The notes beneath the pieces were generated by a model. The model saw only the letters and a program-made list of their open reading frames with translations, did not search any database and was not told where the DNA came from. Source: Candidatus Eiseniibacteriota bacterium (GTDB lineage: Bacteria; Eisenbacteria; RBG-16-71-46; CAIMUX01; VGJL01). Taken from it: a stretch of 64,000 bases of DNA. The translations under genes and the position numbers were made by a program. The stretch is taken from NCBI GenBank assembly GCA_963792585.1, contig CAWBWI010000001.1, positions 1,675,624 to 1,739,623 on the forward strand. Reading direction: 5' to 3'. Within the stretch, counting starts at the first letter, position 1. The number at the start of each line of letters is the position of its first letter. Below are positions 120 through 7,705 of this stretch, piece by piece.

Positions 120-144
120 AGACCGACCGTGAGTCCCAGCGGGA

Positions 145-168
145 CGCGGCGGGACGGCCCCCGCCGCG
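145..168 (+). terminator. GC-rich hairpin after the truncated upstream gene
   Basis: Inverted repeat CGCGGCGGG (145-153) / CCCGCCGCG (160-168); no U-tract. Confidence 0.3.
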
Positions 169-332
169 ATCCCCAAGCCCACACTACAGCCTCCTTGTAG
201 CAACGAGAATGTGTTCACAATCAATTCCTCACAATCGCCTTGTCCTCAAGCAATAAAACTCCATAGGATCCTCGGTTCGCTGAATACGGCCGCCGCGACG
301 CGATTGACATGAAATCCCAAGGAGGGGCGACC

Positions 333-1133
333 GTGGCCAAGGAACAGGACAAGATCAGTCAAACTTTGAAGCAACTCGCCGAACAGGCGCGTTTGGATTC
401 GATCGGCAGCATCGACTACCTCACGAACGCCAAGGCGATCGCTCTCGCCGACGGCAAGGTCCAGGATGCCATCAAGGAAGTTCTGAAACGAGACATGCGA
501 CTGACGGAGATTCGCCCCATGCGCGGCTTCGGCTCCGGCCTCATGTCCTTCCCCATCCAATTGGTATTCCGTTCGGGAACCGGTGACAGCCCGATCGATC
601 TCGAGACCGTGTCCTTGGTCGTCACGGTGGAGATCCCCACGCGCTCGGTCAAGCGCGTCGCCGAGGCTCCCGCCGGGATCGAGGGAGCTGCGGGGGACAT
701 CCCCTTCTCGATCGCGGCGACGGCGCACGCCCCCTATCGCGGCGCGCCGCTCACCGAACTCCAGGGCAGGACGATGCGGGAGAGCGCATTCTACGCCGGC
801 CTCGGATTCCCCGTGGGTGCAGGTCGCCCGTCGGCGGGGCAGTGGACGATCGACGACTACAAGACCAGCGACACCCCCACGGGAACGGACACCGGGAGCA
901 CCTCCTACTCCGACGGCGTGGCCGACGACTCGGAGGTCGACGATTCGGGTTCCGACGAGCCAGTCATCGACGACCACATCACCGAGGGGCACCCGGGAGA
1001 TCCCGGATACTGGTCGCCGTTCGATCCGGGCCGCCCTTTCGGAGGCGATCTCCCCCGACCCGGCGACCGTCCGGGTGTCGGCCCGCGACCGGATCCGCGA
1101 GGAGGCACTGCCCGCAAGCGGTCCGGACGATGA
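333..1133 (+). CDS. Putative large graspetide (ATP-grasp RiPP) precursor/substrate protein, 266 aa
   Basis: GTG 333 follows AGGAGG (320-325); alternative ATG at 309. Contains the Thr/Ser/Asp-rich segment WTIDDYKTSDTPTGTDTGSTSYSDGVADDSEVDDSGSDEPVIDDHITE. Its stop overlaps the ATP-grasp start (ATGA 1130-1133). Confidence 0.7.
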   Translation: MAKEQDKISQTLKQLAEQARLDSIGSIDYLTNAKAIALADGKVQDAIKEVLKRDMRLTEIRPMRGFGSGLMSFPIQLVFRSGTGDSPIDLETVSLVVTVEIPTRSVKRVAEAPAGIEGAAGDIPFSIAATAHAPYRGAPLTELQGRTMRESAFYAGLGFPVGAGRPSAGQWTIDDYKTSDTPTGTDTGSTSYSDGVADDSEVDDSGSDEPVIDDHITEGHPGDPGYWSPFDPGRPFGGDLPRPGDRPGVGPRPDPRGGTARKRSGR

Positions 1134-2056
1134 TTCTCCTGATCGCGGAGCCGCAGGATGTCCACGCACGCGTGGTGGCGCGCCGCCTCGAGCTGCGCGG
1201 TGTCTCTCATGCGATCGTGAACTCAGCCGATTTTCCACAGCGCCTGAGGATCTCCGCGCGCTATGCGGATGGCCGCTTCGCGATCCGCATGGCGAACGGC
1301 TCCCCCATCGTCCAGGACGAGGAGATCCAGGGCGTCTGGTTGCGCCGATTCCACGCGCACGACATCTCGACGGCGATCTCTGACGAGGCGGTTGCCGCAT
1401 TCGCCTATCGGGAGGCGCGCGAGCTGTTCCTTGGCTGGACGGCCAGCGTGCGCAATGTCATCAATCCTCGCAGCGAGGAGTGGCGGGCGGAGCTGAAGCC
1501 GTTCCAGCTCTTCGCTGCGCAGGAAGTCGGCCTGCGAATCCCGCGAACCCTGGTCTCGAACGACCCGGCCGAGATCCACGCGTTCGCCGACTCGCTCGGC
1601 GGCGAGGCGATCTTCAAGGTCCTCTCGGCGACACCGTTCCAGTTCACGGCAACTACGGTCCTCGAGGAACGTCATCTGGCGATGCTCGATGCCGCGCCCC
1701 TCGCGCCCACGATATTCCAGGAACGGATCCGGGCCGACCGGCACCTGCGCGTGACGGTGGTGGACGACCATGTCTTCACGGCGGCGATCGAGCCGGTCCG
1801 CGAGGAGGGGATGCTCGACTGGAGGCTGGATCGCGACCCGAAGATGGAACCCTACGACCTACCCGAATCGATCGAGCAGGGCGTGCTGGCGTTGCGCCGC
1901 CGGCTCGGATTGCGGTTTGGGGCGATCGACATGATCCTCGACACCAAGGGCGAGTACGTATTCCTGGAGATCAACCCGGGCGGGCAGTGGCTCTTCGCCG
2001 AGATTCATGCGGGGCTGCCGATCTCGGACGCGATCGCGGATGCGCTGATCGGGTAG
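1130..2056 (+). CDS. MvdC/MvdD-family ATP-grasp RiPP maturase (graspetide synthetase), 308 aa
   Basis: Start MILLIAEPQDVHA at ATG 1130. Motifs: INP..E.RAELKPFQL..A..VGLRIPRTLVSN, IFKVL, PTIFQERI..DRHLRVTVV, DWR, LGLRFGAIDMI..GEYVFLEINPGGQWLF.E...GLPISDAIADAL. Confidence 0.9.
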   Translation: MILLIAEPQDVHARVVARRLELRGVSHAIVNSADFPQRLRISARYADGRFAIRMANGSPIVQDEEIQGVWLRRFHAHDISTAISDEAVAAFAYREARELFLGWTASVRNVINPRSEEWRAELKPFQLFAAQEVGLRIPRTLVSNDPAEIHAFADSLGGEAIFKVLSATPFQFTATTVLEERHLAMLDAAPLAPTIFQERIRADRHLRVTVVDDHVFTAAIEPVREEGMLDWRLDRDPKMEPYDLPESIEQGVLALRRRLGLRFGAIDMILDTKGEYVFLEINPGGQWLFAEIHAGLPISDAIADALIG

Positions 2057-2058
2057 GC

Positions 2059-2083
2059 GGAACGGGACGTGGCCGCCCGTTCC
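2059..2083 (+). terminator. Hairpin just after the ATP-grasp stop codon
   Basis: GGAACGGG (2059-2066) / CCCGTTCC (2076-2083), followed by a second short hairpin; no U-tract. Confidence 0.3.
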
Positions 2084-2179
2084 CGCCGCGGAGATCCCCT
2101 GGCGGATCTGCCTGGTGCGCTCCTCGCCCCTCTGCGTTAGCCTCCCCGGAGAGCCGGCAACCCACTCCGAGGAGGACCC

Positions 2180-4168
2180 ATGCCGCACCCCCCACAGCCC
2201 GATTTCACGAAGCTCCCGATCGATCGCGAGGATGTATGGCAAGGCGGGATGTTCCGCTTTCCCTCCTGGGTCGAGCCCCGGGGGGATCGTGCCCCCTTCC
2301 GACCCTGGCTTGCCATCTGGTGCAGCGGCGTGACCGGGCATGCGTTTTCGCCAAAGCTCGGCGAGGATCCGGCCAGAGACGCCGGTCTCCTCATCGGTGC
2401 GCTCCGGGAGACGTTTCGCAAGGCCGGCAGGGAGGCGTCCCTCCCCGCCCGACTTCAAGTGAGCGATCCTGAAGACGCAGCGATCGTTCGCGCGGCGGTC
2501 GAGGGTACCGGCGTCATCGTCGAGGTCGCCGATCGACTGGAAGCCTTCACGGAGTTCCGGGACGAGATGCGGAAGCATGCTCGGCAGGATCAGACGATCG
2601 ATCCCCTCACCGACGATCCGGAGATCAGCGTGGAGCAGGTGCGCTCATTCGCGGAGGCGGCGGCCGCCTTCTACCTCTACGAGCCCTGGGATCATTTCGA
2701 CCAGGACGACCTCATCGAAATCGAGTGCGACCTTGCCGACGCGAAGCTCCGCCTGGCCACGGTCATGGGATCCGGAAACGAGGAGTTCGGGATCTTCTTC
2801 ATGGAATCGCAGGAGCAGTACGATTCAATCCTCTCGGGCACAGAGAGTGATGGAAGGATCGTCCGTCTGGGCGGAGATTGGGGCGTCACCTTCTGCCCCC
2901 CCTACGAGATCCCCGTCGCGGAGCATGATCTCTGGGAAGACCACGGACTCCCTCTGGCGGACGCCGACGCGTACCCTTGCCCCGTGAGGATCGGCCCGAG
3001 CCGGCGGGTCGGGCGCCCCAACGCTCGCCAGCTTGCCTATTTCGAGGGACTGATGCGCGCTCTGACGCAGTCGACCGAGGACGAGATGGATTCCGGGCGA
3101 TGGGAGAAGACGGTCTCCACGAGTTCGGGGATGACTACGATCCGGCTGCGTCTCCCGGGCGTCTTGGCGGACGAGGCCGGCGATCCCGCCGCGCAGTCAG
3201 GTCTGCGAACGGACCGCCGTGGTATCGAGAAGGGGATCTCGGAGATCCAGCGTTTCATGGCCACGCAGAATTTCAGCAACATCGAGGAGGCGGAGGCCGC
3301 GATCCAGTCGCGGTTCCTCGGTCGCTCGATCGACAGTTTCCCGTCCACCGCAGCCACACCACTCGAACGGGCGCAGGAGATCATGTACGACGCATTCGAG
3401 GCCCGTGGCCGGACAAGGATCAAGCTCGCTCGCCGGGCCTTGGCGATCTCGCCCGACTGCGCGGACGCATACGGCTTGCTTGCCGCGCGCACGAACAACT
3501 TGGACAAGGCGCGGGATCTCCTGAAGGAGGCGGTCGCGGCCGGCGAGCGCGCGGTCCGATCCCTCGGCATCGATGCCGGAGAGATCGCATGGGGCGATAT
3601 CCGGTGTCGGCCCTACCTTCGCGCCCGCTTCGCGCTTGCGGGGGTTCTCAGAGGATTCGGAGAAGTCGAAGACGCGTTGCGGGAGTTCGTCGAGATTCTG
3701 CGAACGGACCCGGACGATCATCAGGGGGTCCGGTACGAACTGCTGACGTTGCTGCTCGAGCTCAAGAAGGACCGTGAGGCTCACGCTCTTCTCGAGCAAT
3801 TCCCGGACGAGGGCGGCGCGCTGTGGCCTTACGCGCGCGCACTGCTCGCCTACAGACAGGAAGGCGGAAGCGCCGAGGCAGATCGACTGGCCGATCGCGC
3901 CCTGAAGGCGAACCCCTTCATGTGGAAGTTCCTCGCCGGGACTCAAGATCCGCCGTTCGACGTGCCGGAGGCCTATCGGCCGGGCAGCCGGGAGGAAGCG
4001 ATCGTCTTCGCCGAGGATCTCGCGCCGATCTGGCAGGACACGCCGGGAGCGGCAGAGTGGATCCGGTCGCGGGGACGGAGTCGATCGAAGGAGAAGGCCG
4101 GCGGCGGGAAGTCCGGCGCCGGTGGGCGTGGGAAACCGAAAGGGCCAAAGAAGCAGAAGCCACGCTGA
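2180..4168 (+). CDS. Hypothetical protein with C-terminal TPR/ST7-like helical repeat region
   Basis: 662-aa ORF with GAGGAGG RBS. C-terminal ERAQEIMYDAF..ARRALAISPDCADAY..RPYLRAR..DPDDHQGVRY pattern of TPR-like repeats; basic tail. Confidence 0.7.
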   Translation: MPHPPQPDFTKLPIDREDVWQGGMFRFPSWVEPRGDRAPFRPWLAIWCSGVTGHAFSPKLGEDPARDAGLLIGALRETFRKAGREASLPARLQVSDPEDAAIVRAAVEGTGVIVEVADRLEAFTEFRDEMRKHARQDQTIDPLTDDPEISVEQVRSFAEAAAAFYLYEPWDHFDQDDLIEIECDLADAKLRLATVMGSGNEEFGIFFMESQEQYDSILSGTESDGRIVRLGGDWGVTFCPPYEIPVAEHDLWEDHGLPLADADAYPCPVRIGPSRRVGRPNARQLAYFEGLMRALTQSTEDEMDSGRWEKTVSTSSGMTTIRLRLPGVLADEAGDPAAQSGLRTDRRGIEKGISEIQRFMATQNFSNIEEAEAAIQSRFLGRSIDSFPSTAATPLERAQEIMYDAFEARGRTRIKLARRALAISPDCADAYGLLAARTNNLDKARDLLKEAVAAGERAVRSLGIDAGEIAWGDIRCRPYLRARFALAGVLRGFGEVEDALREFVEILRTDPDDHQGVRYELLTLLLELKKDREAHALLEQFPDEGGALWPYARALLAYRQEGGSAEADRLADRALKANPFMWKFLAGTQDPPFDVPEAYRPGSREEAIVFAEDLAPIWQDTPGAAEWIRSRGRSRSKEKAGGGKSGAGGRGKPKGPKKQKPR

Positions 4169-4276: not shown

Positions 4277-7200
4277 CTAGACAGGCGTATCCCCGCCAGC
4301 GACCAATCCCCGAAGCCTCTCCACCTCGCGTCTGGCGTACGGCGACTGGCAATTGGCGACGATCGAGGCGTAAGCGGCAAGCGTCTCCCGCGCCTCATCC
4401 GGCCGGCCGAGGGCGAGGAGAGTCTCGACGTGGTCCGGTCCGACAAAGAGATGAACCACCGTCGATTCCGACCTTCCCAGCATCGCGAGGGTCTCATCGA
4501 TCAGACGCAGGGCCTTGTCGAACCGGCCTTGCCGGATCCGGATGTGGGCCATGCAACGCCAGGCCTCCCCCTTCATGTGCGTCAGGTCGAGGGCCTCGGC
4601 GCGCTCGATTCCCTGGAGACCGACCACCTCCGCCTCCTCCAGATGGCCGAGCTCGGCTAGGGCCCAACCGAGGTAGCAGACCAAGAGGCAGCCGAGACGG
4701 CGCTCGTCCAGGGCGTTGGCGAGCGTGATCCCTTCACGGAATTCACGCTCCGCACGATCCAGGTCCCCCAGCATACCCGCGCACAGCCCCGCGTACATGT
4801 ACGACCATGCCAGTCGCTCGCGCGAGTGCATCCGCCGAGCGATCTCGCGTTCCCGATCGGCGTAGACGAGTCCTTCCTTCCACTCGCCCGTGCTGACCGC
4901 ATCTTCTCCCAGGAACTCGTAGCCGACCGCGATGGCGAGAGGGATCCCGAACTTCTCCCCGAAGGCGATCACAGTGCGCGCCCAGCGGTCGGCGTCGTCG
5001 AAGAGGCCGAGGTGCTGATGTGCGCCGGCGAGATATGCGTAAAGCGGGATCAATGCGGCCGCCTGAGGGGAGCCGATCTGCGTCTGATCGGGCGCCGGCG
5101 CGGCCAGGGCGGCCGCCTGCTCCATCAACTCGATCGCCTTGCGATGACGTCCGGCGAGGTGGTGGAAGCGGCCCGCGACGGTCATCGCATAGGCGACCTC
5201 GAACGGCTCCGTCTTGGGATCGAGCAACTCGAGCGCCTGCTGGACGTAAACGAGCCCCCGGGGATCGGCGTTCGTCACGAGCGCGCTCGCGGCCAGCGAC
5301 TGCAGCCGAGCCCGGTGCAGCGGTTCGGTCGCGAGCGCGAGCGCCCGCTCGAAGTGCTCGCATGAGCCCACGAACTCGCCACGCAGCATGAACGCCCGTC
5401 CGATCGATTCTTCCAGCGCGACCTGCTCCGCGGGCAAACGGAGCGCCTCGGCGCACTCGAGCGCTCGGGTGTAGGCCGCGATCGCCTCGTCGTACGCGAA
5501 GACCTGCTCGGCTGCGGCCGCGGCCTCCTTCGCGAACGCGAGTCCCCGTTCATGATCGCCCGCCTGGATGAAGTGGTGCGCAAGCGTTTCCGCCGGCACA
5601 ACGGCGCGTCGGCGGAGGAGCTCGAGCCCCTCCGCGATCCGGAGGTGGAGTCGGCGGCGACGGACCGGGTTCATCTCCTCGTAGAGGACCTCTCGGATCT
5701 TGTCGTGTGTGAAAGCGAAGGAATCGCCGCGTTCCGCGGCGATCAGTTGCGCGGCCGCCGCCTCATCGAGCGCGTCGAGGATTGCGTCCTCGCCGCGGTC
5801 GCCGGCGGCAATCACGAGCTTCTCGAAATCGAAGATCTTCCCAAGGACGGAGGCGGCGCGGAGGATCTCGTTGCACTCGGGGCGCACACGGTCGAGGCGA
5901 TTGCCGATCGCGGCCTTCATGCTCTGCGGGATCGACAGCTCGGTGATCTCGCTGCGCGTCCACTCCCCACCTTCGCGCCGGACGGACCCCTGTTCGATCA
6001 GCGACTTCAGGACTTCCTCGACGAAGAACGGGTTTCCCTCGGTCTCCTTCTGAACCGCCTCCGCGAACTCGAGGCTCACGTCCTCCCCCAGGAGCGCTCC
6101 GAGCTGCGCCCGCGTCTCCTCGACCGCAAAGCGGCGCAGGGCGATTCGGGTCGTGAGGCGTTCTCGATTCCAGTCGACCAACGCCTTCCCGAGCGGGTGG
6201 GCCCTGTCGAGATCCGTCTCGCGGTACGACGCGGCAACGAGGAGCCGCTCCTCCCTGAGGTTCCGCATGAGATGTCCCAGGAGCCAGAGGGTGCTGGCGT
6301 CGGCCCAGTGAAGATCGTCGATGTAGAAGAGCAGGCCGCGACGCAGCGACAGCTCGCGCAGGGTCTGCGCGACCGCGTCGAAGAACAGGAGGCGCTCTTC
6401 TTGCGGCGACAGCTGGGGCCGGTCCGGGAACGGACCGAGGCGGGTTTCCAGCTCGGGAGCGAGCTTTGCGATCTGGGGCGCGTTCTCCCCGAGGAGCGCG
6501 CGCAGGGTCCCGTCGTTCGCAGTCTCACGCACCCAGCGGCGGAAGGCTTCGACGAACGGCAGATACGGGGTCGTTGCCTCGTACTCGTAGCAGCCCCCGG
6601 CCATGACGATCGCGCCGTCGAGTGCTCCCTGGATCTGGAGTTCCCGGGCGAGCCGGGTCTTTCCCGCACCGGGCTCTCCGCTCACGAGAACGCAGTGGCC
6701 GCGCCGGTCGAGCGCCCGCCTCCAAAGATCCCGCGCTTCGGACAACTCGCGGGAGCGTCCGACGAGACGACCTCGCGAAAGGGCGTCCAGAAGCGCCACG
6801 GCGCCGGTATCCCCCGTCGTCGCGACGGCCGGAGCGGCGAGCGCATCCCGCAGCGCGGCCGCAGTCTCGGCGGCGGTCGCGAAGCGCTGCTCGGGATTCT
6901 TGGCGAGGAGGCGCAGGATGACACTCTCGATCGTCACCGGCAGGTCGGGCCGGATCACGCGGGGTGGGACGACGGGCGCGTGAACGTGCTGCGAGATGAC
7001 GGCGAGCGGATCGTCGCCCGTGAATGGAAGACGTCCCGTGGTCAGCTCATAGAGGACGACACCCAAGGCGTAGAGGTCGGCGCGACCGTCGATGGAACGC
7101 CCCAGCGCCTGTTCGGGAGCCATGTACCCCACACTGCCCGCGATCCCTTCGGCATGGGTCAGGGAGGAATCGCGCACGGGCATCGCAATCCCAAGGTCGG

Positions 7201-7705
7201 CGAGCTTGATGTTCGTGCGCCCGTCACCCTCGACGAGAAGTACGTTCTCCGGCTTCAGATCGCGGTGTACCAGATGGTGGCTGTGGGCATGCTCGAGCGC
7301 TTCGCAGACCTGGCAGCCGATGTCGACGATCCCCGAAAGGTCCTGCGGCGCAACCTGGCGGAGGGTCCTCCCGAGCACGAGCTCCATCACGAAGAATGGC
7401 ACGCCATGCTCCTCACCGACGTCGTGCACCGCCACCACGCGCGGGTGGTTCAGCGCCGCAGCCGCGCGGGCCTCACTCAGGAGACGGCCGCGCGCGTTGG
7501 GACTCGAGGCCGTCTCGGGGAGCACTTTGATCGCCACCTCCCGCTTCAGCTCGAGATCGGTGGCACGGAAGACGATGCCCATCCCCCCTCGCCCGAGTTC
7601 CGAGTCGAGGCGGTAGCGCCCGCGCAATACGACCCCCGGGACGAGGCGGATTCCGGCGATCGCTCTTGAATCGGTGACGCGGGTCTCTTCGGGATCGGGA
7701 TTCAT
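4277..7705 (-). CDS. Ser/Thr protein kinase - AAA/STAND ATPase - TPR protein
   Basis: GRGGMG, VAIK, HRDLKPEN, DLG, YMAPE; Walker A GEPGAGKT; Walker B IDDLHWAD; TEGNPFF; TPR-like C-terminus; no clear TM helix. Confidence 0.92.
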   Translation of the reverse strand: MNPDPEETRVTDSRAIAGIRLVPGVVLRGRYRLDSELGRGGMGIVFRATDLELKREVAIKVLPETASSPNARGRLLSEARAAAALNHPRVVAVHDVGEEHGVPFFVMELVLGRTLRQVAPQDLSGIVDIGCQVCEALEHAHSHHLVHRDLKPENVLLVEGDGRTNIKLADLGIAMPVRDSSLTHAEGIAGSVGYMAPEQALGRSIDGRADLYALGVVLYELTTGRLPFTGDDPLAVISQHVHAPVVPPRVIRPDLPVTIESVILRLLAKNPEQRFATAAETAAALRDALAAPAVATTGDTGAVALLDALSRGRLVGRSRELSEARDLWRRALDRRGHCVLVSGEPGAGKTRLARELQIQGALDGAIVMAGGCYEYEATTPYLPFVEAFRRWVRETANDGTLRALLGENAPQIAKLAPELETRLGPFPDRPQLSPQEERLLFFDAVAQTLRELSLRRGLLFYIDDLHWADASTLWLLGHLMRNLREERLLVAASYRETDLDRAHPLGKALVDWNRERLTTRIALRRFAVEETRAQLGALLGEDVSLEFAEAVQKETEGNPFFVEEVLKSLIEQGSVRREGGEWTRSEITELSIPQSMKAAIGNRLDRVRPECNEILRAASVLGKIFDFEKLVIAAGDRGEDAILDALDEAAAAQLIAAERGDSFAFTHDKIREVLYEEMNPVRRRRLHLRIAEGLELLRRRAVVPAETLAHHFIQAGDHERGLAFAKEAAAAAEQVFAYDEAIAAYTRALECAEALRLPAEQVALEESIGRAFMLRGEFVGSCEHFERALALATEPLHRARLQSLAASALVTNADPRGLVYVQQALELLDPKTEPFEVAYAMTVAGRFHHLAGRHRKAIELMEQAAALAAPAPDQTQIGSPQAAALIPLYAYLAGAHQHLGLFDDADRWARTVIAFGEKFGIPLAIAVGYEFLGEDAVSTGEWKEGLVYADREREIARRMHSRERLAWSYMYAGLCAGMLGDLDRAEREFREGITLANALDERRLGCLLVCYLGWALAELGHLEEAEVVGLQGIERAEALDLTHMKGEAWRCMAHIRIRQGRFDKALRLIDETLAMLGRSESTVVHLFVGPDHVETLLALGRPDEARETLAAYASIVANCQSPYARREVERLRGLVAGGDTPV

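What the first reader, a model, noticed from the sequence alone, without database searches (positions are those of the whole stretch)
333..2056. Two-gene graspetide-like system with an oversized (266 aa) protein precursor
Seen: a MvdC/MvdD-type ATP-grasp ligase whose ATG overlaps the stop of the upstream ORF (ATGA 1130-1133). The pair is bracketed by hairpins (145-168, 2059-2083), and the upstream ORF has a block dense in Thr/Ser/Lys and Asp/Glu. Established: graspetide synthetases (microviridin MvdC/D, plesiocin PsnB, thuringinin TgnB) join Ser/Thr/Lys side chains to Asp/Glu as omega-esters/amides on an adjacent precursor, usually a short peptide or a leader plus tandem cores. Inference: this ORF is the substrate. 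It matches neither the microviridin TxKYPSD core nor the plesiocin TTxxxxEE repeats, and its architecture (large N-domain, single long core, tail) may define an undescribed graspetide class in a poorly studied lineage.
Basis: partly seen in the sequence, partly recalled or inferred. Interest (0 to 1): 0.88.

Follow-up and report, generated by a model that had tools for sequence, protein, structure and literature searches.

The report
Graspetide ligase with protein-sized precursor
A two-gene unit encodes a peptide-stapling ATP-grasp enzyme and, just upstream, a 266-residue protein that is probably its substrate, extending a recently recognised trend of unusually large precursors for this class of natural products.

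Summary
ORF A (333-1133, 266 aa) and an ATP-grasp gene (1130-2056, 308 aa) overlap by ATGA, and both are coding by codon-position GC.

The ligase is a graspetide macrocyclase, not RimK/LysX. It has the MvdD pre-ATP-grasp domain, its best family match is TIGR04187 (1e-67), all 6 PDB hits are graspetide ligases, and the DWR loop is intact.

ORF A matches no Pfam or NCBIfam family. It belongs to a rare, mostly metagenomic family of about 39 credible cluster representatives. The family has a confidently folded alpha+beta N-domain (1-113), an invariant-Pro motif (121-131, DIPFSIAATA), a helix (140-157), a disordered Ser/Thr-then-Asp/Glu core (170-218) and a Pro/Gly/Arg tail.

A controlled complex prediction (0.61 against a best control of 0.00) docks the 121-131 motif and the helix onto the ligase. 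The contacted region corresponds to the leader pocket described for PsnB and MdnC.

The ATGA-coupled pair recurs in 2 of 2 readable metagenome contigs. No protease, transporter or small precursor ORF lies nearby.

Large graspetide precursors with a folded N-domain are already published (CorA, 2026). I therefore rate this a new variant of a known kind, not a new class. Ring chemistry and the product's fate are untested.

The parts
141..173 (+). GC-rich stem-loop between the upstream 258-aa ORF (ends at 119) and ORF A; probably the upstream gene's terminator
   Evidence: dG -28.6 kcal/mol, z -3.6, 1 of 200 shuffles as good; no T-run
321..325 (+). GGAGG ribosome-binding site, 7 nt before the GTG start
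   Evidence: sequence; the same AAGGAGGGG context lies before the start in L002
333..1133 (+). ORF A, 266 aa: proposed graspetide precursor protein (P0001)
333..671 (+). N-terminal folded domain, residues 1-113: three helices then a four-stranded antiparallel sheet; function unknown
   Evidence: block pLDDT mostly 90-97 over 1-113, dipping to about 75 in two loops; no PDB fold match at E<=0.001; 0 of 34 family members hit Pfam or NCBIfam
693..725 (+). Leader-like recognition motif, residues 121-131 (GDIPFSIAATA; family consensus PFxLAVPS); P124 is one of only 3 invariant columns in 34 sequences
   Evidence: invariant P124; all of 121-131 in the confident interface; F125 and P124 touch ligase 162, 185, 188-194
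750..803 (+). Amphipathic helix, residues 140-157 (RExxF..LG); second predicted contact with the ligase
   Evidence: H140-157, pLDDT ~75; 142-159 touch ligase 14-18 and 291-293
840..986 (+). Proposed core, residues 170-218: hydroxyl half (T172, T178, then alternating T181...S193), YSDG turn, then acidic half (D198/199, D203/204, D208/E209, D213/214, E218)
   Evidence: 15 S/T, 15 D/E, 1 K of 49; D/E lag 5 p=0.0004, S/T lag 2 p=0.005; D199 and D204 conserved in >=90% of 34; disordered, small hairpin at 192-197
987..1130 (+). Pro/Gly/Arg-rich tail, residues 219-266, with WSPFDPGRPFGG conserved in the close clade; role unknown
   Evidence: 11 P, 12 G, 9 R+K of 48
1130..2056 (+). Graspetide-type ATP-grasp ligase, 308 aa (P0002); R72/R73, R207, DWR 230-232 and E280/N282 are invariant
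2053..2089 (+). Stem-loop just after the ligase stop; a possible terminator but not statistically distinctive
   Evidence: dG -22.2, z -1.0, 32 of 200 shuffles as good

Best explanation
This is a self-contained two-gene graspetide unit. ORF A is a protein-sized precursor.

Proposed mechanism, with the status of each step:
1. A short linear motif around the invariant Pro124-Phe125 (residues 121-131), together with helix 140-157, docks onto the leader-binding region of the ligase's central domain (ligase residues 162-194). This mimics the way the leader Phe of plesiocin and microviridin precursors sits in a hydrophobic pocket. This step is predicted, with controls.
2. The ligase uses ATP to phosphorylate side-chain carboxylates of Asp/Glu in the acidic half of the core (198-218). 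This is inferred from the family mechanism.
3. Ser/Thr hydroxyls of the hydroxyl half (172-193) attack, giving several omega-ester (macrolactone) links. The links probably run across a hairpin whose turn is the invariant YS(D/N)G at 192-195. This is inferred from the sequence pattern. A single lactam through K177 is possible.

The folded N-domain (1-113) lies upstream of the recognition motif. It is not predicted to touch the ligase, and its role is open. The cluster encodes no protease or exporter, so whether a peptide is released is unknown.
For: Ligase identity:
- It carries PF21068, the MvdD pre-ATP-grasp domain (7.8e-11, above the cut-off).
- TIGR04187, MvdC and MvdD models score 1e-67, 5e-60 and 6e-49, against RimK at 9e-11 and LysX at 2e-5.
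- All 6 of 6 PDB sequence hits are graspetide ligases: AMdnB, MdnB, MdnC, 9bou, CdnC and PsnB.
- D230-W-R232, R207, R72/R73 and E280/N282 are invariant in 38 homologues.
- The D(F/W)R loop, Arg213 and Arg72 are the conserved functional residues named for PsnB (preprint 10.1101/2021.03.09.434688; passages and section 11 read).

Linkage of the two genes:
- The ATGA overlap is present here and in both metagenome contigs that reach past the homologue's stop (2 of 2: L002 and L003). L003 has a different upstream neighbour.
- Three further homologue pairs share contig lengths: 41713, 26081 and 11747. That they lie on the same contig is inferred.
- One 4173-nt contig of a ~93% identical relative spans both genes.

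Substrate features:
- In 34 aligned family members the only invariant columns are A33, V106 and P124. The only other columns conserved at >=90% are A37, D199 and D204. So the motif Pro and two core Asp are among the six most conserved positions.
- The N-domain is conserved while the C-terminal region varies. That region nevertheless stays rich in Ser/Thr (14-35%) and Asp/Glu (12-24%) in 33 of 34 members.
- One member (P0139) carries three repeats of the core.
- Acidic residues recur at lag 5 in 5 of 5 close members (p<=0.0014). Asp recurs at lag 4 in 11 of 34 members (p<=0.003).

Docking:
- ipSAE is 0.61 (runs 0.63, 0.56, 0.61) and the best of 3 controls is 0.00.
- The mark was reached by 58 of 80 solved complexes and by 2 of 110 mismatched pairs. 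These counts hold only roughly here because my own alignments were used.
- The runs agree in at least 29% of contacts, and the partner's pLDDT is at least 53.
- The confident interface is precursor 121-131 and 142-159 against ligase 14-18, 162-194, 235-236 and 291-293.
- The 162-194 patch lies 13-45 residues before R207. The PsnB pocket (Y171...F203) lies 10-42 residues before R213.

No competing substrate was found:
- The flanking intergenic ORFs are not S/T/D/E-rich.
- No TIGR04186 precursor scores over the cut-off in the genome.
- The genome has a single PF21068 ligase.
Against: - No chemistry is shown. Dehydration, ring positions and even which half donates are all inferred.
- The complex pass may reflect the model's memory of solved ligase-leader complexes. 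It shows likeness, not binding. The core itself was not placed with confidence.
It could not be read for any of the ~28 distant family members.
- Four of the seven closest ligase homologues (P0009, P0010, P0013, P0014) have no contig-length twin among the precursor homologues. This may be an effect of 90% clustering.
- A distant N-domain homologue (hhalign probability 96.5%, E 8.6e-10) occurs in 2 of 401 sampled genomes of another order. Those genomes gave no PF21068 match, and the homologue has no S/T/D core. The domain is therefore not strictly tied to graspetide ligases.
- The ligase scores below the curated cut-offs of every NCBIfam graspetide subfamily (228 bits against 350).
- The leader-like motif lies at residue 124, whereas Makarova et al. 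found such motifs typically within the first 30 residues.
Confidence: 0.75

Rival explanations
1. ORF A is a partner or scaffold protein that binds and activates the ligase, as MirC does for MirB or CorC for CorB. It is not itself modified, and the true substrate is encoded elsewhere.
For: Partner-protein-dependent graspetide synthetases exist (PMC13097080, sections 9 and 11). ORF A has a well-folded domain and is predicted to bind the ligase. An N-domain homologue exists as a stand-alone 139-aa protein beside other genes in two genomes.
Against: The predicted contact is made by a linear Pro-Phe motif, not by the folded domain. The disordered C-terminus keeps the Ser/Thr-then-Asp pattern across the family, with D199 and D204 conserved in >=90% of members and a triplicated core in P0139. 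No other candidate substrate lies nearby, and none of the TIGR04186 type scores over the cut-off in the genome.
Confidence: 0.1
2. The ligase modifies ORF A by a different ATP-grasp chemistry. One example is RimK-like addition of amino acids to the protein. Another is isopeptide links to a second protein instead of intramolecular rings.
For: The RimK domain model also matches (1.4e-6). The acidic tract resembles RimK-type acidic substrates (my own knowledge of RimK and ribosomal protein S6).
Against: Graspetide maturase models score far better than RimK or LysX (1e-67 against 9e-11 and 2e-5). The MvdD pre-ATP-grasp domain and the DWR loop are present. The protein ends in a basic Pro-rich tail, not an acidic C-terminus. 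The core has only one Lys.
Confidence: 0.05
3. The adjacency is only translational coupling of two functionally unrelated genes.
For: Context could be read directly in only 2 relatives.
Against: The ATGA overlap is conserved at 59-88% protein identity with differing flanks. The controlled complex prediction passes. In the phylum the precursor family was found only in the genome that carries this ligase clade (1 of 206). Five other genomes have only 30-35% identical ligases and no family member.
Confidence: 0.05

Closest known systems
Corallotide system CorA/CorB, graspetide group 15 (Carter et al. 2026, PMC13097080)
   Same: The precursor is protein-sized (~22 kDa). It has a folded N-terminal domain that the enzymes bind, followed by a poorly structured C-terminal region bearing repeated ring-forming motifs. 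The ligase is of the TIGR04187 type.
   Different: CorA's N-domain is all-helical (1-86), its motif is KxxxD x5, and it forms lactams. Its cluster adds a 2OG oxygenase and a beta-lactamase and is restricted to Corallococcus. Here the N-domain is alpha+beta (113 aa), the core is Ser/Thr plus Asp/Glu with a single Lys, there are no accessory genes, and the phylum is different. I could not compare the sequences because CorA was not obtainable with these tools.
RODEO graspetide groups 34, 35 and 41 (Carter et al. 2026, section 7)
   Same: These groups are described as having long or large precursors with repeating ring-forming motifs. Group 35 contains only a synthetase and a precursor.
   Different: Membership could not be tested. 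The present family was not found in the representative genomes or plasmids I searched, so it may be absent from the NCBI-based RODEO set.
Plesiocin/PsnB and microviridin/MdnC (graspetide groups 2 and 1)
   Same: The ligase fold and catalytic motifs match (DWR loop, conserved Arg). A leader Phe is bound by the central-domain pocket. Thr/Ser-to-acid ester rings form across a hairpin, and cores can be repeated.
   Different: Those precursors are short peptides with an N-terminal leader. Here the recognition motif lies at residue ~124, behind a folded domain. Reading the sequence directly, the core has neither TxKxPSD nor TTxxxxEE.

Membership tests
Graspetide synthetase (MvdC/MvdD-type ATP-grasp macrocyclase) | MvdD-type pre-ATP-grasp N-terminal domain | tested here: met
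   PF21068 matches at 42.6 bits (cut-off 27), residues 1-113
Graspetide synthetase (MvdC/MvdD-type ATP-grasp macrocyclase) | D(F/W)R loop, the conserved acid-recognising Arg (PsnB R213) and Arg72 | tested here: met
   DWR at 230-232, R207 and R72/R73 are invariant in 38 homologues. R207 aligns with the ELR Arg of MdnB. The features are defined in the PsnB preprint.
Graspetide synthetase (MvdC/MvdD-type ATP-grasp macrocyclase) | Closer to graspetide ligases than to RimK/LysX | tested here: met
   1e-67 against 9e-11 and 2e-5; 6 of 6 PDB hits are graspetide ligases
Graspetide synthetase (MvdC/MvdD-type ATP-grasp macrocyclase) | ATP-dependent side-chain lactone or lactam formation on the precursor | not testable with these tools
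   Needs co-expression and mass spectrometry
NCBIfam subfamilies TIGR04187 (SAV_5884), TIGR04185 (MvdC), TIGR04184 (MvdD), TIGR04192 | Score above the curated cut-off | tested here: not met
   228.5 against 350, 203 against 425, 167 against 475, and 78.5 against 230. The ligase is of this kind but belongs to none of these curated subfamilies.
Known graspetide precursor families (TIGR04186 GRASP_targ; microviridin; plesiocin) | Match to the precursor model or core motif | tested here: not met
0 NCBIfam or Pfam families for P0001 at E<=1, and 0 of 34 family members at E<=0.01. No TxKxPSD or TTxxxxEE is seen on direct reading.
Graspetide precursor in general (Makarova et al. 2022 criteria) | Leader motif Phhx(1,2)h, typically within the first 30 residues, plus a core with Ser/Thr/Lys and Asp/Glu, encoded next to the ligase | tested here: inconclusive
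   A Pro-hydrophobic motif (PFSIAA; family consensus PFxLAVPS) exists and is predicted to dock, but it lies at residue 124. The core composition and the adjacency criteria are met.
Corallotide-type (group 15) system | KxxxD repeats; co-occurring 2OG-Fe(II) oxygenase and beta-lactamase | tested here: not met
   There is one Lys in the core. The neighbours are a DUF6930/TPR protein, a kinase, a carbonic anhydrase and BNR proteins.

The most novel reading that the evidence does not exclude
The product is not a released peptide. It is the whole ~28 kDa protein, whose disordered C-terminal region is enzymatically stapled into a multi-rung Thr/Ser-Asp ester ladder. This would be an ATP-driven counterpart of the spontaneous ester and isopeptide cross-links of Gram-positive adhesins.

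In this reading the conserved alpha+beta N-domain is a portable carrier or handling domain for ribosomal peptide modification. It is fused in cis here, and it is encoded as a separate 139-aa protein beside a repeat peptide and a carbamoyltransferase-family enzyme in other bacteria.
Probability: 0.2. Interest if true: 0.75.

Novelty: new variant of a known kind. Interest (0 to 1): 0.55.

Why it matters
Graspetides are mined as protease inhibitors and as stapled scaffolds, and precursor prediction is the bottleneck in that mining. This family offers three things.

- It is an uncatalogued precursor type whose recognition motif is internal, behind a folded domain. Short-ORF and N-terminal-leader heuristics would miss it.
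- Its periodic cores suggest a ladder of up to about six ester rungs. Some members have xTxx x6 followed by xxxD x6; this clade has alternating Ser/Thr followed by acidic pairs every five residues.
- It is a minimal two-gene unit that could be tested directly in E. coli.

It also adds a second, unrelated example to CorA. That supports the idea that graspetide chemistry is applied to proteins, not only to peptides.

Tried and rejected
Searches for relatives with readable context:
- Genome contigs with alignment A1: 63 pattern hits, none confirmed.
- A DNA pattern for GSIDx3NA[KR]AIA: 4 hits, all spurious on translation.
- Plasmids by tblastn with P0001 and P0148: no match.
- Whole phylum with the family HMM: 1 of 206, the window's own genome only.
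- ESM Atlas on residues 1-165: no usable hit.

Fold of the N-domain: Foldseek against the PDB gave nothing at E<=0.001. The best hit was a cathelin-like domain at 0.054, followed by weak NTF2-like, VirB8-like, PatG-DUF and amine-oxidase N-domain hits. I assign no fold. The first AF2 model, from 6 sequences, was poor (pLDDT 51) and was replaced by the model from 34 sequences.

Two hits of the HMM search, P0155 (1037 aa) and P0159 (1710 aa), are repetitive proteins. I dropped them as spurious. Nine short fragments were also left out of alignment A2.

Downstream DUF6930/TPR gene (2180-4168) as part of the system: rejected. Orthologues occur in 8 of 20 relatives, none of which has the precursor family.

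'Empty site' test for an insertion: the flanking genes are not adjacent in G003 or G004, so the test was uninformative.

Sequencing runs: all holders carried only small shares of the sampled words (<=0.14), so I draw no conclusion about habitat. The RNA-library contigs (X3, X17) do not show transcription, because DNA can be present in such libraries. Two 21-nt matches (1178-1198 and 1684-1704) to an unrelated contig are chance.

Literature: searches for 'graspetide' with 'large precursor', 'long precursor', 'unusually large' or 'N-terminal domain', turned up only Carter et al. 2026 for protein-sized graspetide precursors. For Makarova et al. 2022 I read section 5 and parts 1-2 of section 6 and found no such family there. 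Part 3 of section 6, section 7 and all supplements were not read. The supplements of both papers were closed, and they may list this family.
Full report
**What is there**

The window begins inside a 258-aa ORF that ends at base 119. A stable GC-rich stem-loop follows at 141-173 (dG -28.6, z -3.6). After a GGAGG at 321-325, ORF A starts with GTG at 333 and ends at 1133 (266 aa, P0001). Its stop overlaps the ATG of a 308-aa gene (1130-2056, P0002) in the sequence ATGA.

Both frames have the GC3 excess expected of real genes in this 65.6% GC window: 0.80 and 0.85. The overlapping 384-aa antisense ORF has 0.60. A ~93% identical relative found in public runs differs by 128 substitutions and no gaps over 1900 bases. 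Of the 38 differences listed between 359 and 941, 32 fall on codon position 3 of ORF A. The second hairpin, just after the ligase stop, is not better than shuffles (z -1.0), and neither hairpin carries a T-run.

**The enzyme**

P0002 has the MvdD pre-ATP-grasp domain (PF21068, above the cut-off) plus an ATP-grasp body.
- Full-length NCBIfam matches are to graspetide maturases: TIGR04187 1.1e-67, MvdC 5e-60, MvdD 6e-49.
- RimK and LysX reach only 9e-11 and 2e-5. All the graspetide scores are below the curated subfamily cut-offs.
- All six PDB sequence hits are graspetide ligases.
- In an alignment of 38 homologues, R72/R73, R207, D230 and R232 (the DWR loop) and E280/N282 are invariant.
- The D(F/W)R loop, Arg213 and Arg72 are the residues shown to be functionally critical and conserved in PsnB (preprint 10.1101/2021.03.09.434688).

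This is the only such ligase in the genome.

**The upstream protein**

P0001 matches nothing in Pfam or NCBIfam.
- A word-indexed search found five close relatives, all metagenomic, at 59-88% identity.
- An exhaustive profile search found 41 cluster representatives at E<=0.001. Two are spurious repeat proteins.
- None of 34 aligned members matches Pfam or NCBIfam.

The alignment shows this layout:
- a conserved N-terminal ~160 residues, with the motifs SIGSID, NAKAIAL, GFGS, LPTRSVKRI, PFxLAVPS and RExxF..LG;
- a variable C-terminal region that is first Ser/Thr-rich and then Asp-rich.

Only A33, V106 and P124 are invariant, and only A37, D199 and D204 are additionally conserved at >=90%.

AlphaFold2 with the 34-row alignment gives block pLDDT of mostly 90-97 for residues 1-113, with two loops near 75. 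That region forms three helices and a four-stranded sheet. Confidence is low for 114-138. A helix follows at 140-157, and the chain is disordered from 165 on, apart from a tiny hairpin at 192-197. Foldseek finds no PDB fold at E<=0.001.

**The core**

Residues 170-218 contain 15 Ser/Thr, 15 Asp/Glu and one Lys in 49 positions.
- The hydroxyl residues alternate: T181, T183, T185, T187, S189, S191, S193 (lag 2, p=0.005).
- The acidic residues recur every five positions: D198/199, D203/204, D208/E209, D213/214, E218 (p=0.0004).
- The acidic pattern holds in 5 of 5 close members and the hydroxyl pattern in 4 of 5.
- Distant members instead show Asp every four residues (11 of 34 at p<=0.003).
- By eye, P0146 and P0148 have about six xTxx units, a (S/T)xGG-type turn, and six xxxD units.
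- P0139 has three copies of the core.

A conserved leader part, a variable but patterned core, and occasional core repeats are the normal logic of graspetide precursors (Makarova et al. 2022, section 5).

**Linkage and docking**

Both metagenome contigs that could be read past the homologue's stop (2 of 2) carry the ligase with the same ATGA overlap. One of them has a different upstream neighbour. Three further homologue pairs share contig lengths, from which I infer co-location. Four of the seven closest ligase homologues have no such twin, which 90% clustering could explain.

In the phylum (206 genomes held), the family occurs only in this genome. Five other genomes have only 30-35% identical ligases.

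A complex prediction with controls scored 0.61, with the best control at 0.00.
- The mark was reached by 58 of 80 solved complexes and 2 of 110 mismatched pairs. These counts hold only roughly, because my own alignments were used.
- The runs agree in at least 29% of contacts, and the partner's pLDDT is at least 53.
- The confident interface is precursor 121-131 (GDIPFSIAATA) and 142-159 against ligase 14-18, 162-194, 235-236 and 291-293.
- The 162-194 patch lies just before R207. The Phe-binding leader pocket of PsnB (Y171...F203) lies just before R213, and MdnC has an analogous pocket.

Ligase-leader complexes have been solved, so the pass may come from the model's memory. It shows that this motif looks like a graspetide leader, not that it binds.

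**Surroundings**

I found no protease, transporter or tailoring enzyme nearby.
- Upstream lie a carbonic anhydrase, an unassigned 258-aa ORF, and BNR/sortilin proteins with secretion tails.
- Downstream lie a DUF6930/TPR protein and a kinase-AAA-TPR regulator.
- The TPR gene has orthologues in 8 of 20 relatives that lack the pair, so it is not part of the unit.
- No S/T/D/E-rich small ORF lies in the flanking intergenic DNA.
- No TIGR04186 precursor scores over the cut-off in the genome.

**Against the model, and open points**

- No chemistry has been observed.
- A distant homologue of the N-domain (hhalign probability 96.5%) occurs in 2 of 401 sampled genomes of another order. Those genomes gave no PF21068 match. 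There it is a 139-aa protein followed by a TMTPGLAGL-repeat ORF, a weak Frankia_peptide match, a carbamoyltransferase-family gene and, in L025, a DUF6445 gene.
- The N-domain is therefore not exclusive to graspetide systems and may be a more general handling or carrier domain.

**Comparison and verdict**

The closest published case is corallotide. CorA is ~22 kDa, has a helical N-domain (1-86) bound by the enzymes, carries five KxxxD lactam motifs, and is modified by a TIGR04187-type ligase (PMC13097080). The same paper lists groups 34, 35 and 41 with long or large precursors, and group 35 is ligase plus precursor only. Their definitions are in supplements I could not open.

Protein-sized graspetide precursors are therefore not new. 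What differs here is:
- an uncatalogued alpha+beta N-domain;
- an internal recognition motif;
- an ester-type, periodic core;
- a minimal two-gene unit in a small phylum.

I rate this a new variant of a known kind. My confidence that ORF A is the ligase's substrate is 0.75, and interest is 0.55.

Noticed in passing
L024:7983-11267 and L025:4955-9037 (two genomes of another order, G503 and G447): A 139-aa homologue of the N-domain (hhalign probability 96.5%, E 8.6e-10) ends right after a leader-like GVAFQLP. In L024 it is followed by an ORF made of TMTPGLAGL repeats that ends ...VAVPSLAGP, a weak Frankia_peptide (PF14407) match and a carbamoyltransferase-family gene. L025 carries the carbamoyltransferase-family and DUF6445 genes on the same side. 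Neither genome gave a match to the MvdD-type ligase domain. This may be a different ribosomal-peptide system that uses the same domain in trans.
   Followed up: partly
window 1008-1055 (residues 226-241) and family members P0130, P0134, P0140, P0143, P0144: A second linear motif (PFGG and/or a P-[VI]-[IL]-I-x-P stretch) lies after the core in this clade and in P0140, P0143 and P0144, but before the core in P0130 and P0134. Its position is movable. It could be a cleavage site or a second docking site.
   Followed up: no
protein P0129 (311 aa, family member): Its N-domain is normal, but the C-terminal 150 residues are Arg/Ala-rich with only 7% Asp/Glu. This looks like an out-of-frame or frameshifted gene call rather than a real variant core.
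   Followed up: no
window 250-2150: A ~93% identical relative (128 substitutions, no gaps) carries both genes on single contigs in coded runs X4 (DNA) and X17 (RNA library). Expression is not shown by this.
   Followed up: partly
L021:5197-10266 (7 to 2 kb upstream of the window start): Two large BNR/sortilin-repeat proteins, one with a Por_Secre_tail sorting domain and one with a FlgD_ig C-terminal domain. These suggest a lineage with type IX-like secretion. The phylum holds only 206 species genomes in the collection.
   Followed up: no
window 2180-4168 and 4277-7705: A DUF6930 plus TPR protein that is conserved in 8 of 20 relatives, and a convergent 1142-aa Ser/Thr kinase-AAA_16-TPR regulator. 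Both are unrelated to the graspetide pair by distribution.
   Followed up: partly
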